Positions 34,328-52,990 of a stretch of DNA of 64,000 bases are shown piece after piece. The position numbers and the translations under genes were made by a program. Each line of letters opens with the position of its first letter. The stretch's first letter is position 1. The stretch comes from Armatimonadota bacterium. Lineage in GTDB: Bacteria; Armatimonadota; UBA5829; DSUL01. The DNA lies in NCBI GenBank assembly GCA_025998755.1, contig AP024674.1, positions 1,104,162-1,168,161 on the forward strand, written 5' to 3'. The notes beneath the pieces were generated by a model that was not told where the DNA came from, searched no databases, and saw only the letters and a program-made list of their open reading frames with translations.

Positions 34328-35042
34328 CTGGTTTCTTTTCTGACACGTCTTCTCGCCACCCTGGAATTCTCTCTCAACCTTGCGGATGAGAGGCCGCCGG
34401 CGGCCACGTAACCCAACCAACCCGTCAAGAGCTTTCTGTAATACAACAGCAATGGCAGGAACCAGACAGAATGGGCCAATGCCAGCTTTTCGACGAGGGG
34501 GCAACTGGAAGGTCACCAAGCCTTCGAGACGGGTTTAGGAGCACGGGCGAGGGCGACATCCGCAGAACCTATCTCACCGCTTCCCAGTATTGCGCAGCGA
34601 CCCAGGTAGATGAAGCACTGGGCTAAGTGTGTCCGGTATGCGTTGAGCGTCTGTCGAGAGCCTTCGCAATCGTCTCTCAAGCCACCGATGGACCGCAAGA
34701 CTTGGGTATCTTCTTTATCCCGAACACCCGGCCCGCCTCCAAGCCCAACCTTCTCCATCACAAGCCGAGGCTTGTCCGACCGTATTAGGTATGAGATCGG
34801 GGTCTTGATGTGCTGAACACCAGCACACTTGGCCAAGGGGAGAGTTGAAAAAACCGCGGACTTTTTGGAGTTCCTGAAATGGCCGAGGAGGAGTGAGGAA
34901 CGCGGACAGCTAAATTCGTGCATAAAACGGTCCGCCAGTGGGCATCCGCAGCTCGCCCAAGTATCCGCATCAGCGGCTGTTAACTTACTGGCCTGGCCTT
35001 GGCCGGCCCGACATACAGGCGGCACACTATGAGGAGGGGGAT

Positions 35043-36392
35043 ATGACTCACTCTGAAGAGGTTCTTTCTCCGGATTTTGAGTTGTTCGGGCTGAAACGGT
35101 CCGGTTCCGGAGCCGTCACACCACCTGCCCCACCGCAACGGGAGACCATCTCACTTGAGCTGAGCCTGATCACGCCGATGTTCGGCGGCGGCGCCGTGGC
35201 AGGACAGGTGGACCCCGACAGGCCTGTAAATGCAAAGTCCATCCGCGGACACCTGCGATTCTGGTGGCGAGCCTGCTACGCCGGCCAGTTCGATTCGGCG
35301 GAGCTCATGTTCCAGCGTGAGGCTGAGATCTGGGGTGCCGCCGGTGAGTATGGGGCCGATGGCAAGCCTGTGCTCGGGCAGGGGGCGGTCGACCTTGAGG
35401 TGGCAATCAAAGAGAAAGGACAACCCGTTCCCTGTGCCACCTATCGGAAACAAGAGCGCGCCACGTTCAATGATAAATATCCAGCATACGTTCTGTTCCC
35501 CTTTCAAGGCAAGCTCGCCAAAGACCGCTGCGTAATTGAGGTACCGCCAACGAAATGCCTGGAAAAACTAACATTCGCATTGCGGCTTAGCGTTCCCGGG
35601 GAAGTTCGGGAAGAGGTAGATTGTGCGCTTCGGGCGTGGATCCTTTTCGGGGGGGTGGGAGCCCGCACACGGCGCGGTTGCGGAGCTCTTGCCCGGGTAC
35701 CAGCGTCCGATGAATGGCTTCGCGGCTTCGACGACTTGTTTTCCCAGCACGGACCGGCGAAATGGGCAATGTTTCCACAGCTTGCAGGCTCCCGCGTGCT
35801 ACTCGGAGAGCAGCAGAACCATTTGCAGGCCTGGAGCACAGCAGTCAACCTGATGCGGGATTTCCGCCAGAGACCGGACTTTGCCCGCAATCCCGGAGAC
35901 AATCGCCCGGGCCGCAGTCGCTGGCCAGAACCAGATAGCATCCGCGACGTCAGGAGGCGATGGGCACCAGGCCACGAACCCACTCACCCCGCACGTCCGT
36001 TCTATCCCCGCGCGGATTTAGGTCTGCCTATTGTCTTTCATTTCAAAGATGGCAACAGAGGAGATCCCCAAGACCCTGACCCCACGCTGGAGGCAGCAGG
36101 AGAAGACAAGACGAGAATGGCCTCAGCTATCATTCTCAAACCTGTAGCTATATCCGAGAGCCTGTCCGTTCCGCTGGTTCTGCTGCTCAACACACCGCAT
36201 ATTTACGATGAGGCAGCACCGGGGGCCAAGCTAAAGGAAGTGCGCGGACAATCTATTGCAAGAACTGAGCTCTTAAATGAGACAAAGGCTGGCCTTGTGG
36301 CGCCGATGGACGGTGAGCCCGACGTGAGAAAGGCGTTCCTGAATTTCGCGAGAAACAACTTTCATGTAAAAAGGGAGGTGAAACTGGAGTGA
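35043..36392 (+). CDS. cmr1: type III-B CRISPR RAMP protein Cmr1
   Basis: Start ATG 35043 with GAGGAGGGGG RBS. Motifs ITPMFGGGA and IRGHLRFWWRA. Confidence 0.75.
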   Translation: MTHSEEVLSPDFELFGLKRSGSGAVTPPAPPQRETISLELSLITPMFGGGAVAGQVDPDRPVNAKSIRGHLRFWWRACYAGQFDSAELMFQREAEIWGAAGEYGADGKPVLGQGAVDLEVAIKEKGQPVPCATYRKQERATFNDKYPAYVLFPFQGKLAKDRCVIEVPPTKCLEKLTFALRLSVPGEVREEVDCALRAWILFGGVGARTRRGCGALARVPASDEWLRGFDDLFSQHGPAKWAMFPQLAGSRVLLGEQQNHLQAWSTAVNLMRDFRQRPDFARNPGDNRPGRSRWPEPDSIRDVRRRWAPGHEPTHPARPFYPRADLGLPIVFHFKDGNRGDPQDPDPTLEAAGEDKTRMASAIILKPVAISESLSVPLVLLLNTPHIYDEAAPGAKLKEVRGQSIARTELLNETKAGLVAPMDGEPDVRKAFLNFARNNFHVKREVKLE

Positions 36393-38128
36393 CATACCTT
36401 GTATCCATCTCAATCGGGCCAGTACAGGATTTCATCGCGGCGGCCAGGAAGACCCGGGATCTCTGGGCAGGTTCTTATCTGCTCAGCGAGATATCCCGCG
36501 CGGCAGCTCAGGCGCTGGCCGATAAACAGTGCCAGCTGGTCTATCCCTCCCGTGCGACCGTCGTAAATAGAGATCTTTCCATACCTAACAAGATTCTGGC
36601 CATCGCACCGCAGGGTTCCTCTCCGGCAGACCTAGCCAAAGAAGCATCCAATGCCGCCGAGGAGAAATTGTTCGAGTTCCTTGATGCTGCGCTCGAAAAA
36701 GTCCGTACCGAATATCCTGAGATTGATGTAAAAGTCTGTCAAAGCCAGGTTGAGACCTTTTTGGAGCTCTACGCGGCCTGGTGGCCAATGAAGGACGGCA
36801 ATCTCGTGGAAGCCCGCGAACAGGTGGAAGAGCTAATGGCCGGGCGCAAGGCGCTCCGGGACTTCGCACAGTCGGCAAGCAGCGCCGGCGTTCCGAAGAG
36901 CAGCCTGGACCCCGGCCGGGACGCAGTGCTTGATGGCCGTAAGGTTCGGGAACACCGTACGGGACAGGAACATAACCTGGACATCAAGCAAGGCGAGATG
37001 CTGGATGCGATATCCCTCACGAAGCGCTTCGGCCCTGCCCAGCGTTTTGTATCCACCGCGAGAGTTGCCGCCGACCCTCTGATCCGTAGAATGAAAGGAT
37101 CGCCAACTCTGGAGGAGCTGCGGGGACTCGCAGAGGAGATGCTAAAGCAGAAGAGTCAGCTCTGCACATCATTCTCCCCCGAGTCTTTCCCGCAATATGC
37201 TGAGTTCCCGTACGACACATCTCTGTTTTTCAGTGAAGGGCGAGAGGAGGTAGCCGAGGATCCGGCAAAGGACCTGGTCCCAGACTTCACGCATGTGCTG
37301 GGTCGCTTTCTTCGTGATAACGAACTGCCATCTCAGTTGCCAGCCTACTACGCAATACTGGCGGCCGACGGCGACAATATGGGGAAAGTGGTCTCGGAAA
37401 AGGCGTGCTCCGGAGGACTTAAGGAGCTGGAGGAGTTTTCCAAGGTCTTGTCGAAATTCAGCGCGAACGTCCGGGAAATCGTCGAAAACCAGCATAACGG
37501 AGCCCTTGTCTATGGGGGCGGAGATGATGTGCTGGCGTTCCTCCCTCTGGACAGAGCCCTGCCCTGCGCGAATGCTCTCCGGCAGGAGTTCAGCAACTTG
37601 ACTGGGTGCACAATGTCGGTCGGCATCGCGATCGCTCACTACGCTGCCCCGTTGCAGACCGCCGTTCGGTGGGCTCGGGAAGCAGAGCGAGACGCCAAGG
37701 CGCAATCGGGCAAGAATGCGCTCGCCGTCCACCTGCACACGCGCACAGCCGGAGAAGAGCACATCGCGGCCAGGCACAGTTGGGATGATGACCCGGTCAA
37801 CCGCTGGGATCTCTGGACCACGATGCTGGATGAGCGGAAACTCCCATCCCAGGCAGCATATCACTTGCGCCAACTGGCGTGCGAGTTCAACGGGATAATG
37901 GCGAGCGACGTTCTTTACAAGGAGGCTGAACGGATCCTGAAACGCAAGCGCGCGGACTCCGGAACCGAGGAGCTTGACCAGGATGCTGTCGCAAATATTC
38001 TGAGGTTTGCCGGAGGGAAGAACAACATGAGCGCACAGTCCCTTCACGGCGCTGTTAACGAGATCCTGATAGCCCGGAAGATCGTGCCAGCACTAACGTT
38101 GACACGTCAAAAAGGAGAGCAGGAATGA
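36389..38128 (+). CDS. cmr2: type III-B Cas10/Cmr2, short HD-less form
   Basis: GTG start overlapping the cmr1 stop (GTGA). N-terminus TYLVSISIGPVQDFIAAARKTRDLWAGSYLLSEI. Cyclase GGDD motif present (LVYGGGDDVLAFLP). Only 579 aa, and no HD motif precedes the SIGPVQ region. Confidence 0.85.
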   Translation: MTYLVSISIGPVQDFIAAARKTRDLWAGSYLLSEISRAAAQALADKQCQLVYPSRATVVNRDLSIPNKILAIAPQGSSPADLAKEASNAAEEKLFEFLDAALEKVRTEYPEIDVKVCQSQVETFLELYAAWWPMKDGNLVEAREQVEELMAGRKALRDFAQSASSAGVPKSSLDPGRDAVLDGRKVREHRTGQEHNLDIKQGEMLDAISLTKRFGPAQRFVSTARVAADPLIRRMKGSPTLEELRGLAEEMLKQKSQLCTSFSPESFPQYAEFPYDTSLFFSEGREEVAEDPAKDLVPDFTHVLGRFLRDNELPSQLPAYYAILAADGDNMGKVVSEKACSGGLKELEEFSKVLSKFSANVREIVENQHNGALVYGGGDDVLAFLPLDRALPCANALRQEFSNLTGCTMSVGIAIAHYAAPLQTAVRWAREAERDAKAQSGKNALAVHLHTRTAGEEHIAARHSWDDDPVNRWDLWTTMLDERKLPSQAAYHLRQLACEFNGIMASDVLYKEAERILKRKRADSGTEELDQDAVANILRFAGGKNNMSAQSLHGAVNEILIARKIVPALTLTRQKGEQE

Positions 38129-39276
38129 CCACTGTTCTGCTTATCCAGCCGCGTGACCCGCTTCTGTTCCGCGATGGACGCCCCTTCACCGCCGACCCTG
38201 GCGCGATGGCGCGGTCGCTGGACTGGCCGATGCCTTCCACAGTGGCGGGAGCTGTGCGCACGCTGATCGGTAACGCAAACGGGTTCGCCTGGCAGCAAGA
38301 CGGCCCGCATCTGGCCTTGCAGATCCGTATCCGGGGCCCGTTGGCTGTTGTGGAAGGCAAAGACGGAAAGTGCCGCATTTATGTGGCCGCTCCTGCGGAC
38401 GTCCTGTGGTTCGAGGATGGCAAAACATGCGAGGTTCTGCGGCCGCTCAGAACTCTGCCCGAAGGGGCTGGGTGTACGATGCCCGCTGGACTGATGCCGG
38501 TGAGCGTGAGCGCCAGAGAGAAGCCCTACACGCGGATCGCGAGCTGGCCGATGGATTCGATGCTCTCCTTCCTGCTGGAAGGCAAGGTGCCTGATGCGAA
38601 CGAGTGCATTGAGCGCTTCCCGCGGGAGGCTCGCACGCACGTCCGGATGAACGCACAGACTCTAACGGCAGACCCTGGCGGTCTGTTCTCGACGGAGTCG
38701 CTATGCATCCCCGATGTAACGATCCAACGGACAAACGCACGCCGCACCGGCCTGCTTGTTCAGATAGTGTCAGACTGCGACGTTCCCCAGAACTGCTTTT
38801 TCCCGTTGGGCGGCGAACGGCGTGCCGCGATAGCGATGGAAGCTCATGGGCAGTGGCCGGAGCCGCCCGGAGAGTGGGTGGAGAAGCTGGCGAAAACCGT
38901 GTCCGGGAAGAAACGGATCAAGCTCCAGCTGGTAACGCCGGCGGTGTTTGCCAACGGATGGCGTCCGGGTTGGATCGGAGATGACCTGACTGGAACCGTA
39001 CCTGGAACAGGGATCCAGGTGAAGCTTGTCAGCGCGTGCGTCCCCCGCCCTATCGGCTTCAGTGGGTGGGACTACAAAGAGGGCAAACCCAAAGCGGCAA
39101 GCTACGCCGCGCCTGCGGGAAGCGTGTACTTTTTTGAGATCACGGGTGGTGATGTGGATAAGGAGGAACTCGGCAAGTTATTCCTGGCGCCGCTCTGTGA
39201 CGAGTCTCGATTCAGTAACGATGGTTTTGGCCTGGCGTTGCCGGGTATGTGGGATTACGCCGGAGAGGCACAGTGA
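38125..39276 (+). CDS. cmr3: type III-B Cmr3
   Basis: MTTVLLIQPRDPLLFRDGRPFTADPG… is the canonical Cmr3 N-terminus. ATGA overlap with cmr2. Confidence 0.85.
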   Translation: MTTVLLIQPRDPLLFRDGRPFTADPGAMARSLDWPMPSTVAGAVRTLIGNANGFAWQQDGPHLALQIRIRGPLAVVEGKDGKCRIYVAAPADVLWFEDGKTCEVLRPLRTLPEGAGCTMPAGLMPVSVSAREKPYTRIASWPMDSMLSFLLEGKVPDANECIERFPREARTHVRMNAQTLTADPGGLFSTESLCIPDVTIQRTNARRTGLLVQIVSDCDVPQNCFFPLGGERRAAIAMEAHGQWPEPPGEWVEKLAKTVSGKKRIKLQLVTPAVFANGWRPGWIGDDLTGTVPGTGIQVKLVSACVPRPIGFSGWDYKEGKPKAASYAAPAGSVYFFEITGGDVDKEELGKLFLAPLCDESRFSNDGFGLALPGMWDYAGEAQ

Positions 39277-39285
39277 GGAGATCCG

Positions 39286-40197
39286 ATGGGTAACGCGATT
39301 ATTTTCTTCCACGCTCTGACGCCCATTCACACGGGCACTGGGCAGGCGGTGGATGTTATCGATCTGCCGGTTGCCCGCGAGAAGGTGACAGGATGGCCTT
39401 ATATTCCTGGGTCGAGCATCAAAGGAGTCCTGCGGGACGCAGCCGAGAAGGGGGATAAGCACAAGCGGGCCTTCGGACCGGAGACAGAGAACGCGAAGGA
39501 ATCAGCTGGCAACCTGCTGTTCTGCGACGCCAGACTGCTGTGCTTTCCGGTGCGGTCTTTCAGTGGAACCTTCGCGTGGGTGACTTGCCCTTCTGCCATC
39601 ACGCGGCTCAGCAGGGATTGCGCGGCCGCTGGACTCGATGGGCCACCCCCCTTCACACTGCCGGAGAACTGGGAATTCGCCAGCGTCATTACTACTCCGC
39701 AGACCGCACTGCGAACGCAAAGGCAAAAAAATGGGAACGACGTACGCATCATCCTTGAGGAGTACGATCTTACACCCCTGGAGTACGATCTTACACCCCT
39801 GGAAGAGAACATCTCCAAGCTCGCGGACTTCATCGCTGGAAAAGTTTTTTCCGACAGCGCTTCGCGGGAGCATTTCCTGAAACGTTTTGCCCTGGTCCAC
39901 GACGATATGTTCAGCACTCTCACGGAAACTGCCACTGAGGTGGTTGCGCGCATTGCGCTGGATGAGCGGAAAAAAGTGGTCAAACAAGGCGCACTGTGGT
40001 ACGAGGAGGCAGTACCTGCAGAGGCGATATTCGTTAGCCCTCTCATCAACGCGGAGCGGAATCCCGAAGACGACCTGATCGCCGACTATCTCGTCAAGCA
40101 ACGACTTTCCCCGGTGCAGATCGGCGGGAACGCCAGTGTGGGAAGGGGCCTGGTTCGGATCGTGCTGAACGGCTCGGAGCTTAACGGAGGGCAGTAA
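39286..40197 (+). CDS. cmr4: type III-B Cmr4 (Cas7 backbone subunit)
   Basis: FHALTPIHTGTGQ…WPYIPGSSIKGVLRDAAE. Carries an in-frame 21-nt tandem duplication (EYDLTPL x2). Confidence 0.85.
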   Translation: MGNAIIFFHALTPIHTGTGQAVDVIDLPVAREKVTGWPYIPGSSIKGVLRDAAEKGDKHKRAFGPETENAKESAGNLLFCDARLLCFPVRSFSGTFAWVTCPSAITRLSRDCAAAGLDGPPPFTLPENWEFASVITTPQTALRTQRQKNGNDVRIILEEYDLTPLEYDLTPLEENISKLADFIAGKVFSDSASREHFLKRFALVHDDMFSTLTETATEVVARIALDERKKVVKQGALWYEEAVPAEAIFVSPLINAERNPEDDLIADYLVKQRLSPVQIGGNASVGRGLVRIVLNGSELNGGQ

Positions 40198-40198
40198 T

Positions 40199-40645
40199 AT
40201 GAGCAGGCAGCTTGAACTGATGGGTCAGGCTATCGATCACATCAGGGCACAAGAAAACGGGGACGAAGAATTCCGCAGAATCTACGGGGGCCTCTATCAC
40301 AAACTGCCTGTGCTCATCAGGACGTGCGGGCTCTGTCAGGCTCTAGCGTTTGTGAACTCCAAGACACAAGCACAAGGTTCTAGAGGCTCCGCGCACAAGG
40401 CGGTGATGAGTGACGTCACGAACGTCCTGACGAAATTCTGTGGGGTGAGAGTCGCTGAGGACGACAAAGGGGATATCCTGGCCGTGATACGAGAGGAGCT
40501 GCAATCCTGGGAGTATGCTATGGCAACGCGCATCCTCCTGCAGTCTCTGGTCTTTCATAAGCGGTTTGCGGAATCCATCCTCGGAGTCGAGGCCTCGGAC
40601 TACTTGGCCGAGGACGAGCGGGTAGCGGAGATTCAGGTTCAATGA
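40199..40645 (+). CDS. cmr5: type III-B Cmr5 (Cas11 small subunit)
   Basis: 148 aa alpha-helical protein (…FRRIYGGLYHKLPVLIRTCGLCQALAF…) in the position expected for cmr5. Confidence 0.8.
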   Translation: MSRQLELMGQAIDHIRAQENGDEEFRRIYGGLYHKLPVLIRTCGLCQALAFVNSKTQAQGSRGSAHKAVMSDVTNVLTKFCGVRVAEDDKGDILAVIREELQSWEYAMATRILLQSLVFHKRFAESILGVEASDYLAEDERVAEIQVQ

Positions 40646-41688
40646 GGGATGTCCTTTCTAAGTACAAGACCTCCCACGCAGGTCTACTGCTGGAACGGCT
40701 TGTTCCAGACTTAAGCGATTCTTCCACAAAGCCCGAGAAGATCGCTTCGCTGATGAGTACTCTCGAAGACTGGTGCGGCTCCGATGATAACGGGAAACTT
40801 TATCAACACGCATTCAACTCACTCCAAGAGCAGCTCCAGCGCTTGCCGAACATTGTGCTGAAACAACTTAAAGTCACAGACCGGATCATCGTGGGTCTTG
40901 GCGCCGAAAATCCGATGGAAACTTCCATTACCCTGAATCGGTTGTTCGGGGTTCCTATTATCCCCGGATCGGCGTTGAAGGGTGTTGCCCGGAGATATGC
41001 CGAGATGTTCGAACCGGAGGATAAGGAAAGAAAGGGGGATCACACAAAGCAGATCCAGTTCCTGTTCGGCGACGTCAACTTCGGGGGCAGGATCACATTC
41101 TTCGATGCTTGGTGGGTGCCAGACCAACAAGAAAAACCGCTGTGCAAGGACGTGATCACTGTCCATCATCAGGAATACTACAGGACGAAGGGCAAGAAGC
41201 CGCCTACCGACTTCGACGACCCGAACCCCATGAGCTTCGTCAGCGCAAAGGGCACTTTCCTCTTCGCCGTACAGGGGCCTACCAAGGAATGGTCGCAGCT
41301 GGCGATGGCCCTCCTTCAGGGCGGACTCTGTCATCTCGGGGTCGGAGCGAAAACCAGCAGCGGCTACGGAAGGTTCCAGGACGATACGGCGGTGTTCGGT
41401 TCGTCAACGCAATCTGCTGGGCAAGCATCAAGCGCTGAGCCACTTATAGATCCTTCCGCTATGCCCGACGAAGCGCTAAAGACCGCTATTGAGAGTCTCT
41501 CTCGTGCGAATATGAAGGACTTACTACCAAAGTTCGCGGCCCGGTGGGACACCATTCAGAGCGATCACATGAAACGGCAGGTTGGGCAGATCATTAGAGA
41601 GAAATCTCGGATATCAGGTGTGAGCGGCCCATGGCTCAATCCCATCAACAACTTTCTACAAGGAAAGAGACCCAATCGCAGACGGTAG
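40642..41688 (+). CDS. cmr6: type III-B Cmr6
   Basis: RLFGVPIIPGSALKGVARRYAE…GGRITFFDAWWVPD. ATGA overlap with cmr5. Confidence 0.8.
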   Translation: MRDVLSKYKTSHAGLLLERLVPDLSDSSTKPEKIASLMSTLEDWCGSDDNGKLYQHAFNSLQEQLQRLPNIVLKQLKVTDRIIVGLGAENPMETSITLNRLFGVPIIPGSALKGVARRYAEMFEPEDKERKGDHTKQIQFLFGDVNFGGRITFFDAWWVPDQQEKPLCKDVITVHHQEYYRTKGKKPPTDFDDPNPMSFVSAKGTFLFAVQGPTKEWSQLAMALLQGGLCHLGVGAKTSSGYGRFQDDTAVFGSSTQSAGQASSAEPLIDPSAMPDEALKTAIESLSRANMKDLLPKFAARWDTIQSDHMKRQVGQIIREKSRISGVSGPWLNPINNFLQGKRPNRRR

Positions 41689-41709: not shown

Positions 41710-42993
41710 ATGAGGATGGAGGATGGAGGATGGAGGATGGAATCCGCTGTGCAGCCTACAGTCTCTCCCAATGCCACTGAGGAACCTTCAGACCTTACCC
41801 TGCTCACGACGCTCGGCACTGGCAAGTATGTTGATGTGACCTATCAATACGGCCAACAGCAGTTCACCACCAGCCTCGTTCCTGTGGCTCTTGCCGAATG
41901 GTTCAAGCCCACCAAGACGATCGTGCTGTTGACGGAACAGGCAAAGAACTCAGACTACTGGCAATTGCTCAGTAAGAAAGTCCAGAACTGTCAGGAAGCC
42001 AAGATCCCTGAAGGCCGATCTGAGGAGGAATACTGGAAGATATTCGACATCGTTACCTCAGCACTCAGTGGGTCTAAAGAGGTTATCCTGGATATCACGC
42101 ATGGCTTTCGCTCTCTGCCGGTAATTGTTTTGCTGGCTGCTGTGTTCCTTCAAGAAAGCCAGGGGGTGAAGATGAGGCACATCTTTTACGGAGCGTATGA
42201 AGCTCGTGACAAGGACAAAGGAGAGCCTGCGCCCATCTTTGACCTCTCGCCAATGCTTGACCTAGTGCAATGGGCTGTCGCCACTAACCGGTTCCTCGAG
42301 ACCGGAGACGCTCGCAAACTCGGCCACCTTCTTGAGGAGATCCAGCGGAGGTTTTACACATCTGTAGAGGTCTCGGCAGGAAAAGAGCCGCCAAAGCAGC
42401 TTCAATCTGCTGGCCAGGCACTGTCTAAACTGTCCCAAGCCATCGATCTTGTCCGCCCTGCCGACATACGCGAATACAGTCAGAAACTTATGGAAGAGCT
42501 GGTCACGGCAAAAACAGAGATCCAACTATTCGCCCGCCCGTTCGAACTTGTGCGGGAACACGTTCAGGCCGAGTTCGGAGGTTTGAAGCAGGGTGATCTT
42601 GCCTCCCAACGGGATCTCATCAAATGGTATCTGGATCATGGTCGTATATTGCAGGCAATGATCTTTGCGAGGGAATGGGTGATATCTTGGACGGCTGAGG
42701 CCATCAACCGCGGGGACCTGAAAGACCGTGAAAGCATTGAGCACGCGCTGAATCAGGTGATTCACCGGAGTGAAGGACGTGACCCAACCAAGGCAAAGGA
42801 CATTGACCCAGACATCGTGAAAAGCGTGAACGACTTGGAGGCGAGGGAGCAGCTGAAGGATATCTGGAGTGAGCTGGGAGGCTTGCGCAATGACCTTGCC
42901 CATTGTGGTTTCCGCAAGGACCGCAGAAAAGTGAACAGGCTGCCTGATCAGGCCAAGGAGATCTACTGTCTTCTGAGGGAGCTGGAGTGTTGA
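41710..42993 (+). CDS. csx1: Csx1 family CARF-HEPN protein (DxTHG motif)
   Basis: CARF signatures TLGTGKY and DITHGFRSLP. C-terminal HEPN R-x4-H motif (RNDLAHCG). The more likely start is the in-frame ATG at 41737 (MESAVQ), preceded by an (AGGATGG)4 repeat. Confidence 0.75.
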   Translation: MRMEDGGWRMESAVQPTVSPNATEEPSDLTLLTTLGTGKYVDVTYQYGQQQFTTSLVPVALAEWFKPTKTIVLLTEQAKNSDYWQLLSKKVQNCQEAKIPEGRSEEEYWKIFDIVTSALSGSKEVILDITHGFRSLPVIVLLAAVFLQESQGVKMRHIFYGAYEARDKDKGEPAPIFDLSPMLDLVQWAVATNRFLETGDARKLGHLLEEIQRRFYTSVEVSAGKEPPKQLQSAGQALSKLSQAIDLVRPADIREYSQKLMEELVTAKTEIQLFARPFELVREHVQAEFGGLKQGDLASQRDLIKWYLDHGRILQAMIFAREWVISWTAEAINRGDLKDRESIEHALNQVIHRSEGRDPTKAKDIDPDIVKSVNDLEAREQLKDIWSELGGLRNDLAHCGFRKDRRKVNRLPDQAKEIYCLLRELEC

Positions 42994-43367
42994 CTGTTCT
43001 CAACTTTTCCCACCCCCTCACTCAGGAACAGCTGCAGCAGATTGAGGCTATTTCGGGTGAGCCAATATGTGACGTGCGGCAGATCCCTTGCCAGTTCGAC
43101 CATATGCAGGGTTTCGCGGAGCAGACGCGAGCCCTAGTAGATGCGGTGGGGCTGGGCCCGGAGGAGTGGCAGACACTCCCAATTCTCGTAAACCTTCCCA
43201 CCCACCACGTTATTGCGGCTGCTGTTGTGGCAGAGATCCAAGGTCGGGTGGGATACTTACCCGCCGTGCTGCGCCTTCGTCCTGCCGGCAACAGCCTGCC
43301 GCGCTTTGAGGTCGCCGAGATCCTGAATCTGCAGGCAGTGCGCGAGACTGCTCGCCTGTCAAGGTAG
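42987..43367 (+). CDS. small CRISPR-associated accessory protein, possibly DUF1874 (Crn2/AcrIII-1-like ring nuclease) family
   Basis: 126-aa ORF with GTG/TTG start overlapping the csx1 stop. TVLNFS…L beginning, a central …LVNLPTHHVIAAAVV… His-containing segment and an E-containing C-terminal helix (FEVAEILNL) loosely match the DUF1874 pattern. Assigned from memory only. Confidence 0.3.
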   Translation: MLTVLNFSHPLTQEQLQQIEAISGEPICDVRQIPCQFDHMQGFAEQTRALVDAVGLGPEEWQTLPILVNLPTHHVIAAAVVAEIQGRVGYLPAVLRLRPAGNSLPRFEVAEILNLQAVRETARLSR

Positions 43368-43465: not shown

Positions 43466-43726
43466 ATGCTCGCAGCGTTCGATATTCGACTCAATCCGGC
43501 AGATGATGCGCTGCTTCCCCACCCCTGCGGGCACCAGGTGCACGCGGCTCTGCTCGCTGCGGTCAATCGAGTTAATCCCGAGCAGGCCAGGGCGTTCCAT
43601 AGCGATGCGCAGGTAAAGCCATTCGCCATTAGTGCGCTCTCTGGCCCCGCATCCGCATCCGGGGGACCACGTTGGAGGTGCCCAGGGACACTGAATGCCG
43701 CGTGCGCCTCGTCACCAACGCCTTAG
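43466..43726 (+). pseudogene. cas6: Cas6 N-terminal remnant (truncated)
   Basis: FDIRLNPADDALLPHPCGHQVHAALLAAV…FHSDAQVKPFAISAL matches the Cas6 N-terminal ferredoxin-fold pattern (…HD…KPFTFS.L). It then degenerates into low-complexity P/S/A/G sequence and a TAG stop. No glycine-rich loop or C-terminal domain. Confidence 0.5.
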
Positions 43727-43768: not shown

Positions 43769-44860
43769 ATGGCAGAGGCGCGGAAGGAAAATCGTGACAT
43801 GAGAGACCTCATCGTAACCGTGGGAACATCGCTACTCGGCAACTGGCGGGGATCCAACCGTACACAGGAACATCGTGCGGAGGATCTTCCAGACTGCCAG
43901 ACTCTCTTGGATTGGGTCGGCCAGCAGCCTCCCGAAAAGGCCTCTGCAGAGACCCACACGCTTTTCCGGCTTCCGCTTGAAGCAGACGACAGAATTCACC
44001 TTCTACACAGCAGCACAGAGGAAGGGCGGCTCTGCGCGCACGCGCTAGAACGCCATTTTTCACCCCGGTGCCGCGAGTGCAGATTTGTGGAGATAAGATA
44101 CCTGTCCTACAGCGAGCCGCACTTTAGGGACCGCGGTCTTCGAGAGCTGCTATCTGAGGCGTTCAAGATTATCCGGGAGGCCCGGCGCAAAGGCCGCAGC
44201 GTAGAGATCTGCGCCACCGGTGGTTTCAAGCCCGAACTTGCCTATCTCAATGTGGCAGGGCTGCTGGCAAAATGCCCGGTCCACTACGTCCACGAGCGCT
44301 TCGCGAGTCTGATCACCCTGCCTCCGCTGCCGGTGGACTGGGCAGTGAATCTCGACGAGCAAAGCATTGAGTTCCTGCAATGGCTGGACTCCGGTTTCAG
44401 GAATGAGCAAGAGACAGAAGCCCGTCTGAAACAGCTGCCCCACCTGCGTTCACTGGTCTCCTTCGACGACGAAGGATGTTCTCTCTCTCCTGCCGGGCTT
44501 GCCCTGTTGGAGGCGTGGCGCGAACGGACCGGCTTCATACCCGAAGTCCACCTACCCCACTCCGGAAAGGCGGCTGCTGAGAAGATCGACCTCAGCAAGG
44601 AGCCCCATCACCGTCCGTCCGGGTTCGATAAATATCGGGACCGCATTGCAAACTTGGATTTTGTAACGCAGATCTTCTATCGCGGTGGCCTGCCAGCGTG
44701 CGAGAAAAGCGTCGCCGTTTTGAACGCTGCTGAGGGCAGTCTTCGCGTGCGTCTTTCCGACGGAGACTATGGCATCGAACTTATTGTTCACACCACCGCA
44801 ACGGATGACGCTGGGGCGGAGTTAGCGGCGAAGCTGGTTCGCGAAGCTTTGGATAACTGA
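43769..44860 (+). CDS. CARF-domain protein with uncharacterised C-terminal domain
   Basis: CARF signatures DLIVTVGTSLLGN and ICATGGFKPELAYLNVAGLL (Csm6/Csx1-like). The ~180-aa C-terminal half has no HEPN R-x4-6-H motif or any other motif I recognise. Confidence 0.6.
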   Translation: MAEARKENRDMRDLIVTVGTSLLGNWRGSNRTQEHRAEDLPDCQTLLDWVGQQPPEKASAETHTLFRLPLEADDRIHLLHSSTEEGRLCAHALERHFSPRCRECRFVEIRYLSYSEPHFRDRGLRELLSEAFKIIREARRKGRSVEICATGGFKPELAYLNVAGLLAKCPVHYVHERFASLITLPPLPVDWAVNLDEQSIEFLQWLDSGFRNEQETEARLKQLPHLRSLVSFDDEGCSLSPAGLALLEAWRERTGFIPEVHLPHSGKAAAEKIDLSKEPHHRPSGFDKYRDRIANLDFVTQIFYRGGLPACEKSVAVLNAAEGSLRVRLSDGDYGIELIVHTTATDDAGAELAAKLVREALDN

Positions 44861-44982: not shown

Positions 44983-47190
44983 ATGCTCGTGATCACCGGC
45001 CTCGAAAGGCCGGTGCAACATCCCGGTCCACGTCTGTCTGTGAATGTTTCTTCTTGTTTCAATCCTCACCGGCCTCGAAAGGCCGGTGCAACTTTCAGCG
45101 TGTCCCGGTCAATACTGGTCCTCTTCGTTTCAATCCTCACCGGCCTCGAAAGGCCGGTGCAACATTCCGAGTGGGCGTGGCGGGAGCTGCACTCCCGCAG
45201 TTTCAATCCTCACCGGCCTCGAAAGGCCGGTGCAACGAGCCTCTGGGGAGAAGGGCCCCGACAGACCTAAAGTTTCAATCCTCACCGGCCTCGAAAGGCC
45301 GGTGCAACGACGTTCTCGCCATACAGTCTGGCGGGAATCAGCGTTTCAATCCTCACCGGCCTCGAAAGGCCGGTGCAACGTGTGAAGACAACGCAAATAG
45401 GGCCGTTGTTCGACGTTTCAATCCTCACCGGCCTCGAAAGGCCGGTGCAACGGGAAAGACGCCGACTTCCATATCAAGGATTTCTGCGTTTCAATCCTCA
45501 CCGGCCTCGAAAGGCCGGTGCAACGTCGAACAGGCCGGGGGTACCGGAACTTCTTGTGCGGGTTTCAATCCTCACCGGCCTCGAAAGGCCGGTGCAACCG
45601 CCTGCGCGCATGCGCGCGCGTGTCGCGGCCTACGACGTTTCAATCCTCACCGGCCTCGAAAGGCCGGTGCAACAGCCGCACACTCGTGTATGGAAGTCGG
45701 ATTTCGTTGTTTCAATCCTCACCGGCCTCGAAAGGCCGGTGCAACGGCGGCCGGGGATATCAGTACGAGGTCGGCTGCTCGTTTCAATCCTCACCGGCCT
45801 CGAAAGGCCGGTGCAACAGGATAGGAGGTACCTACATGGAACAGGCAATCACGTTTCAATCCTCACCGGCCTCGAAAGGCCGGTGCAACTCCAAGCTGTA
45901 CGAAGAGCTTCTTTCGAGGAAGTGTTTCAATCCTCACCGGCCTCGAAAGGCCGGTGCAACTTTTCGCCTGCCGGGCCCCGTGAAAGCGCGACCAGGTTTC
46001 AATCCTCACCGGCCTCGAAAGGCCGGTGCAACGAGGATATCGTTACGCACATATCCAAGCTGTACGGTTTCAATCCTCACCGGCCTCGAAAGGCCGGTGC
46101 AACGTCGCCGCGGGCGACGTGGGCTCGGCGGCTGCGCGGGTTTCAATCCTCACCGGCCTCGAAAGGCCGGTGCAACGCCCGCGGGCAGTACAAGTACGAT
46201 TACGCCCACACGGTTTCAATCCTCACCGGCCTCGAAAGGCCGGTGCAACTTCAACTAGCTAGTACCAAGGAGGTTGCGATGAAGTTTCAATCCTCACCGG
46301 CCTCGAAAGGCCGGTGCAACGCCCCGTGAAAGCGCGACCAGGAGACTGAGGCATGAGTTTCAATCCTCACCGGCCTCGAAAGGCCGGTGCAACTGTCTGC
46401 TCCCCGTCCGCAGGGGCGGGGATAGATGTTTCAATCCTCACCGGCCTCGAAAGGCCGGTGCAACACTGCGAAGCCGTACAGCTCACGAACTGCACGCTCG
46501 TTTCAATCCTCACCGGCCTCGAAAGGCCGGTGCAACCGAGTTGCAGCCGTCATGGCGCCGTGGTGATGTGGTTTCAATCCTCACCGGCCTCGAAAGGCCG
46601 GTGCAACTGATGAATTCGCCTCCGAGGCGAATCCAGCCCATCCTGTTTCAATCCTCACCGGCCTCGAAAGGCCGGTGCAACGCCTGATCCTTCTGCGCGG
46701 CGTAGCACGCCGCGCAGTTTCAATCCTCACCGGCCTCGAAAGGCCGGTGCAACCCTGCTAGCCGTAGGGGGGCGCGCCCCCCCCTACGGGTTTCAATCCT
46801 CACCGGCCTCGAAAGGCCGGTGCAACGGCGGCCGCAGGGGGGCGGCCGCAGAGCGGCCGCAGGTTTCAATCCTCACCGGCCTCGAAAGGCCGGTGCAACG
46901 CAACCGCCATTGTGGCAGGCGCCATCCTGGACATGGTTTCAATCCTCACCGGCCTCGAAAGGCCGGTGCAACGAATCAACTAGCTACTACCGAGGAGGAT
47001 ACGATGAAGTTTCAATCCTCACCGGCCTCGAAAGGCCGGTGCAACTTGCTTGGGCGTCATCGTTATCACCGGCGCCCAAGGTTTCAATCCTCACCGGCCT
47101 CGAAAGGCCGGTGCAACCGTGCGACGTGTGCAATTACTCCAGACCATTTTGTCGTTTCAATCCTCACCGGCCTCGAAAGGCCGGTGCAAC
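44983..47190 (-). CRISPR. CRISPR array 1 (30 full repeats plus 1 degenerate terminal repeat, 30 spacers)
   Basis: 37-nt repeat, read on the + strand as GTTTCAATCCTCACCGGCCTCGAAAGGCCGGTGCAAC. This is the reverse complement of the array-2 repeat, so the array appears transcribed on the - strand from the cas2 side. Spacers are 33-36 nt. The degenerate repeat at 44983-45019 sits at the leader-distal end. Confidence 0.95.
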
Positions 47191-47408: not shown

Positions 47409-47705
47409 CTAGACGATCATCGGCGCATCAGGATCCACGTAACGGTCCACGCCGTAGGTCTCCACGCAGCGTTCGCGTCCGCCAGGCAGGCGATAGATGC
47501 GGATGCTATCCTTCTCAGGATCAATGATCTTCAGCAACTTGGCCCGTAGCCGCTCCAATTCCCTCTCGTTCAGGCGGCATTCGAAGACAGAATACTGGAC
47601 GCGCTGCCCGAAATTCACACAAGCTTTCGATGCCCTGCGCAGGCGTTTCTGGCCCGCCGCGTCTTCCGTGTTCACATCATATGAGATCAGATAGTCGTCT
47701 CGCAT
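47409..47705 (-). CDS. cas2: Cas2
   Basis: Start ATG 47705 (MRDDYLISYDVNTEDAAGQKRLRR…VQYSVFEC). 10-nt gap after the cas1 stop. Confidence 0.85.
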   Translation of the reverse strand: MRDDYLISYDVNTEDAAGQKRLRRASKACVNFGQRVQYSVFECRLNERELERLRAKLLKIIDPEKDSIRIYRLPGGRERCVETYGVDRYVDPDAPMIV

Positions 47706-47715
47706 AGTAGCCTCT

Positions 47716-48762
47716 CTAGCGAGGGATAAAGGGGGTATAGAACGGGATATCACCCCGCAGGCAACGGGCCAGGATCCTCGCCTGCAGATGAGGGACTACC
47801 CCTAGTGGTACGCGAGTCTTCAGCATGGGATGGGATACCTCGGTCTGCTTCCGCGTCTGGTAGGCGACCACCACCTTTTTACGCCCATCCTCATTCAACA
47901 AAACTGCGCCACCAGGCCTCTCGCGAAAGTCTTCGGGACCGATCTGCTTGCGGTTGATCAGCGTCAGCGCCAAGCGGTCTGCAAAGGGTGCGCGGAACTC
48001 CTCCATCAGGTCCAGAGCCAACGCCGGCCGCCCTGGCCGGATGGCGTGAAGAAACCCGAACTGCGGATCAAGTCCCACCCCTTCGCAGGCCGCGCGGCAA
48101 TCGTTCACCAGCAAGGCATACAGGAAAGAGAGAAGAGCATTTACGCGATCCTTTGGCGGTCTGCGGCTCCGGGAGTCAAAGCGGAAGTCCGTCCGTTGCT
48201 GGGTGATAAGGGAATCGAACGCCTCGAAATATGCCGCTGATCCGTGTCCCTCGGCTCCTCGCACGGCATCGAGCGAGCGTGCTTCCTCCAGGCTTTTCAG
48301 CTGACCGGCAACAGCCTCTGCCGCCCTGGAGAGGGCGGCCACCGCTTCCTTTGCCCTTTGTCCTTCCCCGGCTTCGCGGATGGCCCGGTTCAATACTCCT
48401 CTGCAGTTCTGAAGCTTCCCTGCAACAATGCAACGGGCCACAGCTGCAGCGGCTGACTCGTCCCGGTGCGTCTCATACTGGGCCTTCCGGAGCAGCACAT
48501 TCCCGCTTGTGGCCCCTTCCACCCGTGCCAGAAAGCGGCCGTTCACGTCCATAAACGTTACCGCCCGGCCATCCTCGGCGCACCGATGCATCAGGTAAGG
48601 GCTTACTGTCACCAAGCCGAAAGTCACGATGGCGCCAAGGTGATGCAGAGGGGTCTGCTTGAGCCTCTCGTCCTTTAGATCCACCCGGACCGTGTCTCCG
48701 TCCAGGTGCACGTAGGCTCCCTGCGTGAAGACGTAAAGCGTGTTCAGCAGCTCGGTGGTCAC
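47716..48762 (-). CDS. cas1: Cas1
   Basis: 348 aa. Cas1 N-terminus NTLYVFTQGAYVHLDGDTVRV and conserved core. Confidence 0.9.
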   Translation of the reverse strand: MTTELLNTLYVFTQGAYVHLDGDTVRVDLKDERLKQTPLHHLGAIVTFGLVTVSPYLMHRCAEDGRAVTFMDVNGRFLARVEGATSGNVLLRKAQYETHRDESAAAAVARCIVAGKLQNCRGVLNRAIREAGEGQRAKEAVAALSRAAEAVAGQLKSLEEARSLDAVRGAEGHGSAAYFEAFDSLITQQRTDFRFDSRSRRPPKDRVNALLSFLYALLVNDCRAACEGVGLDPQFGFLHAIRPGRPALALDLMEEFRAPFADRLALTLINRKQIGPEDFRERPGGAVLLNEDGRKKVVVAYQTRKQTEVSHPMLKTRVPLGVVPHLQARILARCLRGDIPFYTPFIPR

Positions 48763-52877: not shown

Positions 52878-52990
52878 CTTTCACCTCCCTTCAGGCGATC
52901 AGAACCTGCGACTCTGCCGGCACCACCAGACCGAGATCGGTCTCCCGGTCGTAATGGTCCGGTTCCAGATAGATGAACCACTCGCTGGAA

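What the first reader, a model, noticed from the sequence alone, without database searches (positions are those of the whole stretch)
43769..44860. CARF-domain protein with an unassignable C-terminal domain (candidate new cOA-activated effector or regulator)
The N-terminal ~180 aa carry clear CARF hallmarks (LIVTVGTSLLGN; ICATGGFKPELAYLNVAGLL; HLLHSSTEEG). The remaining ~180 aa contain no HEPN R-x4-6-H motif, no obvious nuclease, PIN or TM segment, and no winged-HTH pattern that I can recognise.

It sits beside an HD-less Cas10 with an intact GGDD cyclase motif, a canonical Csx1 and a possible ring nuclease. In that context it is a plausible second cyclic-oligoadenylate sensor with a new output domain, and is the best candidate here for something undescribed.
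Basis: partly seen in the sequence, partly recalled or inferred. Interest (0 to 1): 0.7.

Follow-up and report, generated by a model that had tools for sequence, protein, structure and literature searches.

The report
CARF7 sensor with DUF2103-like output domain
This gene encodes a type III CRISPR signal-sensing protein of a family that is already catalogued (CARF7 fused to a "DUF2103-like" domain) but, as far as I could find, never tested; its small C-terminal domain sits where a known relative carries an RNA-cutting toxin, so it is a good experimental target but not a new kind of system.

Summary
The ORF (43769-44860, +, 363 aa; likely true start 43799) is real, intact and under purifying selection. 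Its anatomy is CARF7 (res ~11-190), winged helix (~195-257) and a ~100-aa alpha/beta domain (258-363).

The first two-thirds match Cami1 (CARF-RelE) and the Crn1-type ring nucleases Sis0811/Sso1393. Both Sis0811 catalytic residues are kept (S21, K154).

It is not undescribed. The whole protein matches PADLOC model "CARF7--CARF_DUF2103" end to end (E 1e-84), and a 2025 paper notes the same "DUF2103-like" domain in Menshen NsnC effectors.

I found about 200 clusters (50% identity) carrying the domain, with near-invariant K272, H280/H281, P283 and T342/T343. It recurs inside cmr operons and is sometimes the only cOA sensor beside an HD-less, GGDD Cas10.

Best reading: a self-limiting, cA4-activated second effector next to Csx1, probably a metal-independent RNase or phosphodiesterase. 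That chemistry is inferred, not shown.

Verdict: a new member of a known but uncharacterised kind, of moderate interest.

The parts
43769..44860 (+). Gene for the CARF7-wHTH-DUF2103-like protein (363 aa from the first ATG; probable true start is the ATG at 43799, 353 aa)
   Evidence: ORF list. Identical protein in NCBI as 'hypothetical protein KatS3mg024_0957, Armatimonadota bacterium'. Full-length match to PADLOC PDLC01931, E 1.3e-84. dN/dS about 0.3 against L005/L006 orthologues.
43799..44338 (+). CARF7 domain (residues ~11-190) with GTS (S21) and TGGFK (K154) motifs
   Evidence: Pfam PF09651, E 2.7e-27. Profile alignment to Sis0811 places S12 and K169 on S21 and K154. Foldseek hits Cami1, Sis0811 and Sso1393 at E 1e-13 to 1e-12.
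44351..44539 (+). Winged-helix (wHTH) middle domain (residues ~195-257)
   Evidence: AF2 secondary structure H-H-H-E-E-H over 197-254. Sequence alignment to Cami1 runs through residues 259-262. Foldseek alignment to Sis0811/Sso1393 over ~275 columns, TMt 0.66.
44540..44857 (+). DUF2103-like C-terminal domain (residues 258-363): alpha-beta4-alpha. Conserved P263, K272, H280, H281, P283, G285, T342, T343, A344.
34938..41688 (+). Type III-B effector genes cmr1, cas10/cmr2 (36389-38128; HD-less, GGDD at residues 377-380), cmr3, cmr4, cmr5, cmr6
   Evidence: Pfam and PADLOC hits. GGDD and absence of HD.
41710..42993 (+). csx1 (CARF-HEPN), the canonical cA4-activated RNase of the locus
   Evidence: PADLOC CARF2--CARF_HEPN E 2.6e-107; Csx1/Csm6 E 2.3e-99.
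42987..43367 (+). csx15 (candidate ring nuclease or cOA sponge)
   Evidence: PADLOC Csx15, E 4.2e-33. The literature reports no ring-nuclease activity in vitro, so the function is uncertain (PMC12409355).
43466..43726 (+). cas6 remnant: only the first ~83 codons survive, with a frameshift
   Evidence: Weak Cas6 N-terminal hits. tblastn with the intact 279-aa Cas6 of syntenic locus L005 matches residues 1-67 and 58-83 in two frames only.
44983..47190 (-). CRISPR array: 30 exact 37-nt repeats plus one degenerate terminal repeat. It lies between the III-B genes and a minus-strand type I-C module. Strand is inferred from the ATTGAAAC repeat end.
   Evidence: Repeat finder and exact count. I-C genes cas1, cas4, cas7, csd1; cas5d and cas3.

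Best explanation
The gene encodes a three-domain ancillary protein of the type III-B CRISPR locus: a CARF7 sensor, a winged-helix linker, and a ~100-residue 'DUF2103-like' output domain.

**Proposed mechanism**
1. The Cmr complex binds target RNA, and its HD-less Cas10 (GGDD) makes cyclic oligoadenylate, most likely cA4.
2. A homodimer of this protein binds cA4 in its CARF7 pocket, as its relatives Cami1 and Crn1/Sis0811 do.
3. Binding switches on the C-terminal domain. This domain sits exactly where Cami1 carries its RelE ribonuclease.
4. The CARF pocket, which keeps the Crn1 ring-nuclease Ser and Lys, slowly cleaves cA4 and switches the protein off again.

**Output activity (not shown)**
I infer a metal-independent phosphodiester-cleaving activity (RNase-like). 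The grounds are the conserved K272 / H280-H281 / T342-T343 constellation and the absence of conserved acidic residues.

**Confidence by step**
- Domain identity and family: shown, about 0.9.
- cA4 sensing and self-limitation: inferred from homology, about 0.7.
- Effector role for the C-terminal domain: inferred from domain swaps and genomic context, about 0.55.
- RNase chemistry: speculative, about 0.3.

In this locus the protein would act as a second effector beside Csx1.
For: **Family and fold**
- Pfam Cas_APE2256 above threshold.
- Full-length PADLOC CARF7--CARF_DUF2103, E 1.3e-84.
- The best solved relatives are Cami1 (8PHB/8PHJ) and the CARF7+HTH ring nucleases Sis0811/Sso1393.
- Sis0811 S12 and K169 align to the invariant S21 and K154. 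Their role is described in PMC9638899.
- A CARF7-RelE relative has ring-nuclease activity in vitro (PMC9676260).

**Evidence for an effector role**
- Among close homologues the same CARF7-wHTH scaffold ends either in RelE or in this domain.
- The domain is modular. It occurs after another CARF family (Cas_NE0113), after coiled coils, and after a TM + coiled-coil module that is fused to a NERD nuclease domain in a Nostoc plasmid defence island.
- A relative's domain hits the C-terminus of the Menshen NsnC model. PMC12065111 lists the domain among NsnC effector domains.
- At least 25 of 43 genome loci with the domain have type III, cas1 or CRISPR features within 10 kb.
- The gene is often the last or first gene of the cmr operon.
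- In L085 the compact cmr1-6 operon has an HD-less GGDD Cas10 and this gene as the only ancillary gene, flanked by a chondroitinase-like lyase and AddAB-like genes.

**Conservation**
- K272 86%, H280 86%, H281 82%, P283 93%, T342 99%, T343 94% over about 160 representatives.
- The gene is intact with dN/dS about 0.3.
Against: - I had no model coordinates, so I could not test whether K272, H280/H281 and T342/T343 cluster in space. T342/T343 precede a helix and could partly be a structural N-cap.
- This locus already has a Csx1 effector, so an effector role is not required here.
- Conserved Ser/Lys do not guarantee ring-nuclease activity. TsCard1 keeps them but does not cleave cA4 (PMC9638899).
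- About 40% of loci with the domain are orphans with no cas genes within 10 kb.
- Q349, present in 67% of the family, is G in this protein.
- The domain has diverged faster on this lineage than the rest of the protein.
Confidence: 0.55

Rival explanations
1. It is mainly a Crn1-type ring nuclease, an off-switch that degrades cA4 to reset Csx1. The C-terminal domain is an accessory: dimer stabiliser, regulator, or processor of the A2>P products.
For: - Residues 1-~255 align in sequence and structure to the large standalone ring nucleases Sis0811/Sso1393, with both catalytic residues kept.
- A weak NCBIfam 'CRISPR system ring nuclease' hit.
- The locus already has Csx1 as effector.
- Csx15 is reported to co-occur with Crn1 (PMC12409355), and csx15 lies about 400 nt upstream of this gene, separated from it only by the cas6 remnant.
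Against: - There are loci where it is the only cOA-binding protein next to an HD-less cyclase-active Cas10 (L085; probably L051 and L011). Such a locus would have an off-switch but no effector.
- The domain also occurs without any CARF, in effector-type positions: NsnC, and the TM module that elsewhere carries NERD.
- The NCBIfam score of 33.6 is far below the 600 cutoff.
Confidence: 0.25
2. The C-terminal domain is a non-catalytic binding module. After cA4 binding it tethers or sequesters a cellular partner, for example the ribosome or a translation factor, or another defence protein.
For: - The relative Cami1 is captured by the ribosomal stalk (PDB 8PHJ title; PMC11229360).
- In one Chthonomonadales-like lineage the orphan gene sits next to rplJ-rplL.
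Against: - Near-invariant His-His, Lys and Thr-Thr across very different architectures is more typical of a catalytic or phosphate-binding site.
- The rplJ-rplL adjacency is a single lineage and may be coincidental.
Confidence: 0.13
3. It is a Csa3-like cOA-responsive transcription regulator that acts through its wHTH.
For: A wHTH follows the CARF domain. Foldseek hit to Csa3 6W11, E 2e-5.
Against: - The Csa3 match is poor (TMt 0.44), and there is no Csa3 Pfam hit.
- The wHTH is the one shared with Cami1 and Crn1-type enzymes. I know of no reported DNA-binding role for it in those proteins; that rests on my own knowledge, not on a tool result.
- This model does not explain the conserved extra domain, which also occurs without a wHTH.
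Confidence: 0.05
4. It is a degenerate Cami1 or Csx1, with a decayed RelE or HEPN domain, or a pseudogene.
For: PADLOC CARF_RelE models match the protein strongly. An R219-x5-H225 string exists.
Against: - The RelE models align only to residues ~251-282, that is CARF plus wHTH.
- hhalign of the domain against Cami1-like RelE domains gives probability 0.2%.
- H225 is not conserved.
- The domain family has about 200 clusters with its own conserved motif.
- The ORF is intact with dN/dS ~0.3.
Confidence: 0.02

Closest known systems
Cami1 (CARF7-wHTH-RelE; PDB 8PHB/8PHJ), a cA4-activated, ribosome-dependent mRNA nuclease
   Same: Best solved relative by sequence (profile E 6e-32 over CARF + wHTH) and by fold (Foldseek E ~1e-13). 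Same domain order, similar length and same type III-B/Csx1 company. Close homologues of the query include RelE-ended proteins.
Crn1 large standalone ring nucleases (Sis0811 7PQ2, Sso1393 3QYF; CARF7 + HTH)
   Same: Fold match over ~275 columns (TMt 0.66). Catalytic S12/K169 correspond to S21/K154.
   Different: Those enzymes end after the HTH, whereas this protein has an extra conserved 100-aa domain. The NCBIfam ring-nuclease equivalog score of 33.6 is far below the cutoff of 600.
Catalogue family 'CARF7--CARF_DUF2103' (PADLOC-DB v2 model PDLC01931)
   Same: End-to-end profile match, residues 11-361 to profile positions 1-339 of 340, E 1.3e-84. This is the family the protein belongs to.
   Different: Nothing structural differs. 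The family has no experimentally assigned function in the literature I could search.
'DUF2103-like' C-terminal domain of Menshen NsnC effectors (PMC12065111) and Pfam DUF2103 (PF09876)
   Same: - A relative (P0080) hits the C-terminal 100 positions of the NsnC model.
- 5 of 128 relatives hit PF09876, collinearly.
   Different: The query itself matches neither PF09876 (no hit at E <= 10) nor the NsnC model. The relationship is distant, and DUF2103 is itself uncharacterised.
Csx1/Csm6 (CARF-HEPN)
   Same: A CARF-containing type III ancillary protein. A true Csx1 is encoded two genes upstream.
   Different: Different CARF clade (CARF7, not CARF2). No HEPN domain. The output domain is a small beta-rich domain rather than a helical one.

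Membership tests
CARF superfamily, CARF7 clade (Pfam Cas_APE2256) | Profile match above the curated threshold to the CARF7/APE2256 Rossmann-like domain | tested here: met
   PF09651 95.7 bits against a cutoff of 24.8; TIGR02619 80.1 against 37.45; several PADLOC CARF7 models.
CARF superfamily, CARF7 clade (Pfam Cas_APE2256) | Binding of a cyclic oligoadenylate in a dimeric CARF pocket | not testable with these tools
   Inferred only, from conserved GTS and TGGxK motifs and homology to cA4-binding Cami1/Sis0811.
CARF7--CARF_DUF2103 (PADLOC PDLC01931) | Full-length collinear match: CARF7 + wHTH + DUF2103-like domain | tested here: met
   E 1.3e-84, residues 11-361 against profile 1-339/340. 13 full-length homologues align end to end.
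Pfam DUF2103 (PF09876) | Profile match to PF09876 at or above the gathering score (22.4 bits) | tested here: not met
   No hit for the query or 12 close relatives even at E <= 10. 5 of 128 distant relatives hit it weakly (best E 1.4e-5). P0169 scores 17.6 bits, covering profile 5-94/98. Hence 'DUF2103-like', not a member.
Cami1 (CARF-RelE) | CARF7 + wHTH scaffold | tested here: met
   Profile E 6.2e-32 to 8PHB over residues ~43-262; Foldseek E ~1e-13.
Cami1 (CARF-RelE) | C-terminal RelE/BECR-fold ribonuclease domain | tested here: not met
   [not shown]
Crn1 ring nuclease (large, CARF7+HTH type) | Conserved catalytic Ser and Lys (Sis0811 S12, K169) | tested here: met
   They align to S21 and K154, which are invariant in 13 homologues.
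Crn1 ring nuclease (large, CARF7+HTH type) | Standalone CARF(+HTH) architecture; equivalog-level profile score | tested here: not met
   An extra 100-aa conserved domain is present. NF040951 scores 33.6 bits against a cutoff of 600.
Crn1 ring nuclease (large, CARF7+HTH type) | cA4 cleavage activity | not testable with these tools
   Needs biochemistry. Note that TsCard1 keeps the Ser/Lys but is inactive (PMC9638899).
Csx1/Csm6 (CARF-HEPN) | HEPN domain with a conserved R-x4-6-H motif | tested here: not met
   No HEPN profile covers the C-terminal half. The only R-x5-H string (219-225) lies in the wHTH and is not conserved.
Csa3 (CARF-wHTH regulator) | Csa3-type CARF and DNA-binding wHTH as the terminal output domain | tested here: not met
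   No Csa3_N Pfam hit. Foldseek to 6W11 gives only TMt 0.44. The wHTH is internal and followed by another domain. DNA binding itself is not testable here.
Menshen NsnC C-terminal effector domain | Match to the C-terminal ~100 positions of the NsnC profile | tested here: inconclusive
   The relative P0080 matches NsnC positions 179-278/281, E 3.5e-5. The query itself does not. The link is also stated in PMC12065111.

The most novel reading that the evidence does not exclude
The DUF2103-like domain is a new class of small, metal-independent RNA- or phosphodiester-cleaving effector. It would be switched on by cA4 through the Cami1/Crn1-type CARF7-wHTH scaffold. The same effector would be reused by Menshen (NsnC) and by membrane-anchored cyanobacterial defence proteins. 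That would make this a third output type for the CARF7 scaffold, and a toxin domain shared across unrelated defence systems.
Probability: 0.35. Interest if true: 0.65.

Novelty: new member of a known kind. Interest (0 to 1): 0.42.

Why it matters
Type III CRISPR immunity depends on which effectors the cyclic-oligoadenylate signal switches on. Most catalogued CARF architectures have now been characterised: Csx1/Csm6, Can1/2, Cami1, Cam1 and Cad1.

I found no experimental study of the CARF7-DUF2103-like family in the held literature, yet it is widespread. It comprises about 200 clusters at 50% identity, across Armatimonadota, Latescibacterota, Acidobacteriota, Planctomycetota, Chloroflexota, Cyanobacteria and others.

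In some loci it is the only candidate effector beside an HD-less cyclase-active Cas10. Such loci cannot currently be explained.

Working out its activity would fill a real gap in the effector list. It would also assign a function to the matching domain in Menshen NsnC and in the cyanobacterial membrane proteins.

For this particular window the gene is an ordinary member of that family. The value lies in the family, not in this locus.

Tried and rejected
**Hypotheses rejected**
- **HEPN, PIN, TM.** No profile or hydropathy support.
- **Divergent RelE.** hhalign probability 0.2%.
- **Pseudogene.** The ORF is intact, all family-conserved residues are present, and dN/dS is ~0.3.
- **Standalone C-terminal-domain genes (P0040, P0044, P0046) as evidence for a free toxin.** They sit at contig ends or after gaps next to cas genes and look like fragments.

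**Searches that found nothing**
- PDB sequence search with a profile of the C-terminal domain: no hit at E <= 10.
- BFVD viral structures: nothing at E <= 0.001.
- IMG/VR scan for viral homologues: none.
- Search for a named relative ('Cami2'): only unrelated metagenomics papers.
- 'DUF2103' occurs in a single held paper.

**Tools or sources unavailable**
- The afdb50 fold library was not available.
- The search for related loci with the domain-only alignment failed, because no stretch was conserved enough.
- The Makarova et al. 2020 CARF classification paper, presumably the origin of the CARF7 labels, is not held. I cite the PADLOC model names instead.
- I had no access to model coordinates, so I could not test spatial clustering of the conserved residues.

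Full report
**1. The observation**

The ORF at 43769-44860 (+) is real and encodes 363 aa. The exact protein is deposited as a hypothetical protein of an Armatimonadota MAG (KatS3mg024_0957).

Pfam assigns residues 57-187 to Cas_APE2256 (E 2.7e-27, above the gathering score), and NCBIfam assigns TIGR02619.

Homologues begin at 'MRDLIV' and residues 1-8 are modelled with pLDDT below 50. The true start is therefore probably the ATG at 43799.

The gene is intact. It keeps every family-conserved residue and shows dN/dS of about 0.3 against its two closest orthologues (L005, L006). It is not a pseudogene.

**2. Surroundings**

Upstream on the same strand lie:
- cmr1, cas10/cmr2, cmr3, cmr4, cmr5 and cmr6 (34938-41688);
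- csx1 (41710-42993);
- csx15 (42987-43367);
- an 86-codon ORF with weak Cas6 N-terminal similarity (43466-43726).

Cas10 is 579 aa. It has GGDD at 377-380 and no HD domain.

Downstream is a CRISPR array of 30 exact 37-nt repeats plus one degenerate repeat (44983-47190). A type I-C module follows on the minus strand: cas2, cas1, cas4, cas7, csd1, cas5d and cas3.

A metagenomic contig (L005) has a 78%-identical orthologue. It shows the same gene order with an intact 279-aa Cas6.

**3. Anatomy of the protein**

An AlphaFold2 model built from 13 homologues has mean pLDDT 87. It shows three parts:
- a Rossmann-like CARF domain (~11-190);
- a helix-helix-helix-strand-strand-helix winged helix (~195-257);
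- an alpha-beta4-alpha domain (258-363).

Modelled alone, the last domain reaches pLDDT 92.

Foldseek of the full model against the PDB returns Cami1 (8PHJ/8PHB, E ~1e-13). Next come the CARF7+HTH ring nucleases Sso1393 (3QYF) and Sis0811 (7PQ2), with TM-score 0.66 over ~275 columns.

A profile of the family aligns to Cami1 over CARF + wHTH (E 6e-32) and to Sis0811 (E 4.5e-22). The deposited Sis0811 mutant sequences identify the ring-nuclease residues S12 and K169. These fall on S21 and K154 of the query, which are invariant in the family. Their catalytic role is described in PMC9638899.

**4. The C-terminal domain**

| Test | Result |
|---|---|
| Pfam, query and 12 relatives | no hit, even at E <= 10 |
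| PDB sequence profile search | nothing |
| hhalign against RelE domains of Cami1-like homologues | probability 0.2% |
| BFVD viral structures | nothing significant |

The domain is therefore not HEPN, RelE or PIN, and the protein has no TM segment.

It is nonetheless a known entity. The whole protein matches PADLOC model PDLC01931, 'CARF7--CARF_DUF2103', from residue 11 to 361 (E 1.3e-84).

An exhaustive HMMER search of 1.84 billion representatives with the domain profile found 203 proteins at E <= 0.001. Of 128 of these scanned against Pfam:
- 81 carry Cas_APE2256;
- 4 carry another CARF family (Cas_NE0113);
- 5 give weak hits to PF09876 (DUF2103), collinear with that profile.

'DUF2103' appears in no other paper of the held library.

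**5. What the domain's distribution says**

Across about 160 representatives the near-invariant positions are:

| Position | Conservation |
|---|---|
| P263 | 91% |
| K272 | 86%, plus 10% R |
| H280 | 86% |
| H281 | 82% |
| P283 | 93% |
| G285 | 79% |
| T342 | 99% |
| T343 | 94% |
| A344 | 84% |

No acidic residue is conserved.

The domain is modular. Besides CARF7-wHTH it follows:
- coiled-coil N-termini;
- other unassigned N-terminal domains;
- in cyanobacteria, a two-TM + coiled-coil + wHTH module.

That same TM module is fused to a NERD nuclease-related domain in a Nostoc plasmid. It also sits among methylase, HEPN, GIY-YIG and helicase genes in Synechococcus plasmids.

A relative's copy of the domain matches the C-terminal 100 positions of the PADLOC NsnC model.

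Among close homologues of the query, the same CARF7-wHTH scaffold ends either in this domain or in RelE. This pattern of swaps is what is expected of an effector module.

**6. Genomic association**

In one genome per GTDB species, 43 loci encode the domain behind a CARF7. At least 25 of them have type III genes, cas1 or a CRISPR array within 10 kb. This is a lower bound, because only phmmer with this window's proteins was used.

The gene is typically the last or first gene of the cmr operon. In cyanobacteria it lies between cmr3 and cmr4.

In L085 the operon cmr1-cas10-cmr3-cmr4-cmr5-cmr6 plus this gene is flanked by a chondroitinase-like lyase and AddAB-like genes. Its Cas10 is HD-less with GGDD, and no other CARF/SAVED protein was found. 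L051 and L011 look similar.

Such loci need an effector, and this is the only candidate.

Other copies are orphans, for example next to flagellar genes or next to rplJ-rplL.

**7. Most likely mechanism and its rivals**

- **Shown:** domain identities, family membership, and conservation of the ring-nuclease residues and of the C-terminal motif.
- **Inferred from homology (Cami1, Sis0811):** dimeric cA4 binding and slow self-inactivation by cA4 cleavage.
- **Inferred from swaps and context:** the C-terminal domain is the output that cA4 switches on.
- **Speculative:** its chemistry. A Lys/His-His/Thr-Thr constellation without acidic residues resembles metal-independent RNA-cleaving enzymes, which use His/Lys general acid-base catalysis. 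This comparison rests on my own knowledge, not on a fold match.

The main rival is that the protein is chiefly a Crn1-like off-switch for Csx1 with an accessory domain. It is favoured by the strong Crn1 similarity and by the Csx1/Csx15 company. It is disfavoured by the sole-sensor loci and by the CARF-less architectures.

A non-catalytic binding module and a Csa3-like regulator are less likely. A degenerate RelE or HEPN is excluded as far as these tools can test.

**8. Novelty and verdict**

But the wHTH was missed, the architecture is already catalogued, and the domain is already named in the literature.

This is a new member of a known but experimentally uncharacterised family. Interest is moderate. 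A specialist would not be surprised by its existence, but the family is a clear open target whose function is directly testable.

Noticed in passing
window 43466-43726 (+): cas6 is a remnant. Compared with the intact 279-aa Cas6 of the syntenic locus L005, only residues 1-67 and 58-83 are matched, in two different frames. This implies a frameshift plus a deletion of about 590 nt just upstream of the CARF7 gene. crRNA processing for the III-B complex may therefore depend on another enzyme, for example the neighbouring I-C Cas5d.
   Followed up: partly
window 44983-47190: One CRISPR array (30 exact 37-nt repeats plus a degenerate terminal repeat at 44983-45019) lies between the plus-strand III-B genes and a minus-strand type I-C module (cas2 47409-47753 through cas3 ~52894-55177). 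Read on the minus strand, the repeat ends in ATTGAAAC. This suggests transcription from the I-C side and an array shared by both systems.
   Followed up: partly
window 45961-45995 and 46321-46356: Two spacers share a 21-nt overlap (GCCCCGTGAAAGCGCGACCAG). They were acquired from overlapping positions of the same target, which is consistent with repeated or primed acquisition.
   Followed up: no
window 44540-44857 vs L005/L006: The C-terminal domain of the window's gene has diverged far more from its two closest orthologues (dN 0.25, dS 0.6-0.9) than its CARF domain has (dN 0.05-0.08). The two orthologues are nearly identical to each other in this domain (dN 0.03). Possible explanations are recombination from a more distant allele or lineage-specific acceleration. 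Family-typical Q349 is G here.
   Followed up: partly
L003 10001-12180, L004, L035, L049: In a Chthonomonadales-like lineage, an orphan CARF7-DUF2103-like gene with no cas genes within 10 kb lies convergent with rplL-rplJ (ribosomal stalk L7/L12 and L10). This is curious because the relative Cami1 is captured by the L12 stalk. It is a single lineage and may be coincidence.
   Followed up: partly
P0049, P0056, P0066, P0074 (representative proteins); L086 5968-8019; L087 5938-7386: Cyanobacterial proteins of 580-670 aa combine a two-TM N-terminal module, a long coiled coil, and the same wHTH + DUF2103-like module. In a Nostoc plasmid the same N-terminal module is instead fused to a NERD nuclease-related domain. 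In Synechococcus plasmids it sits in defence-island-like neighbourhoods. This may be an unnamed membrane-anchored defence family.
   Followed up: partly
L060 9926-11011, L064 1446-2522: In cyanobacterial type III-B loci the CARF7-DUF2103-like gene is inserted between cmr3 and cmr4, inside the effector-complex operon rather than at its end.
   Followed up: no
window 42987-43367 (+): csx15 overlaps the end of csx1 by 7 nt and lies about 400 nt upstream of the CARF7 gene, with only the cas6 remnant between them. The literature reports that Csx15 lacks ring-nuclease activity in vitro and tends to co-occur with Crn1-type proteins (PMC12409355). A Csx15 + CARF7 pairing is seen here and in L005.
   Followed up: no
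P0011 (358 aa homologue): One CARF7-wHTH homologue ends in a third type of C-terminal region that is matched neither by the RelE alignment nor by the DUF2103-like profile. It may be another swapped output domain.
   Followed up: no
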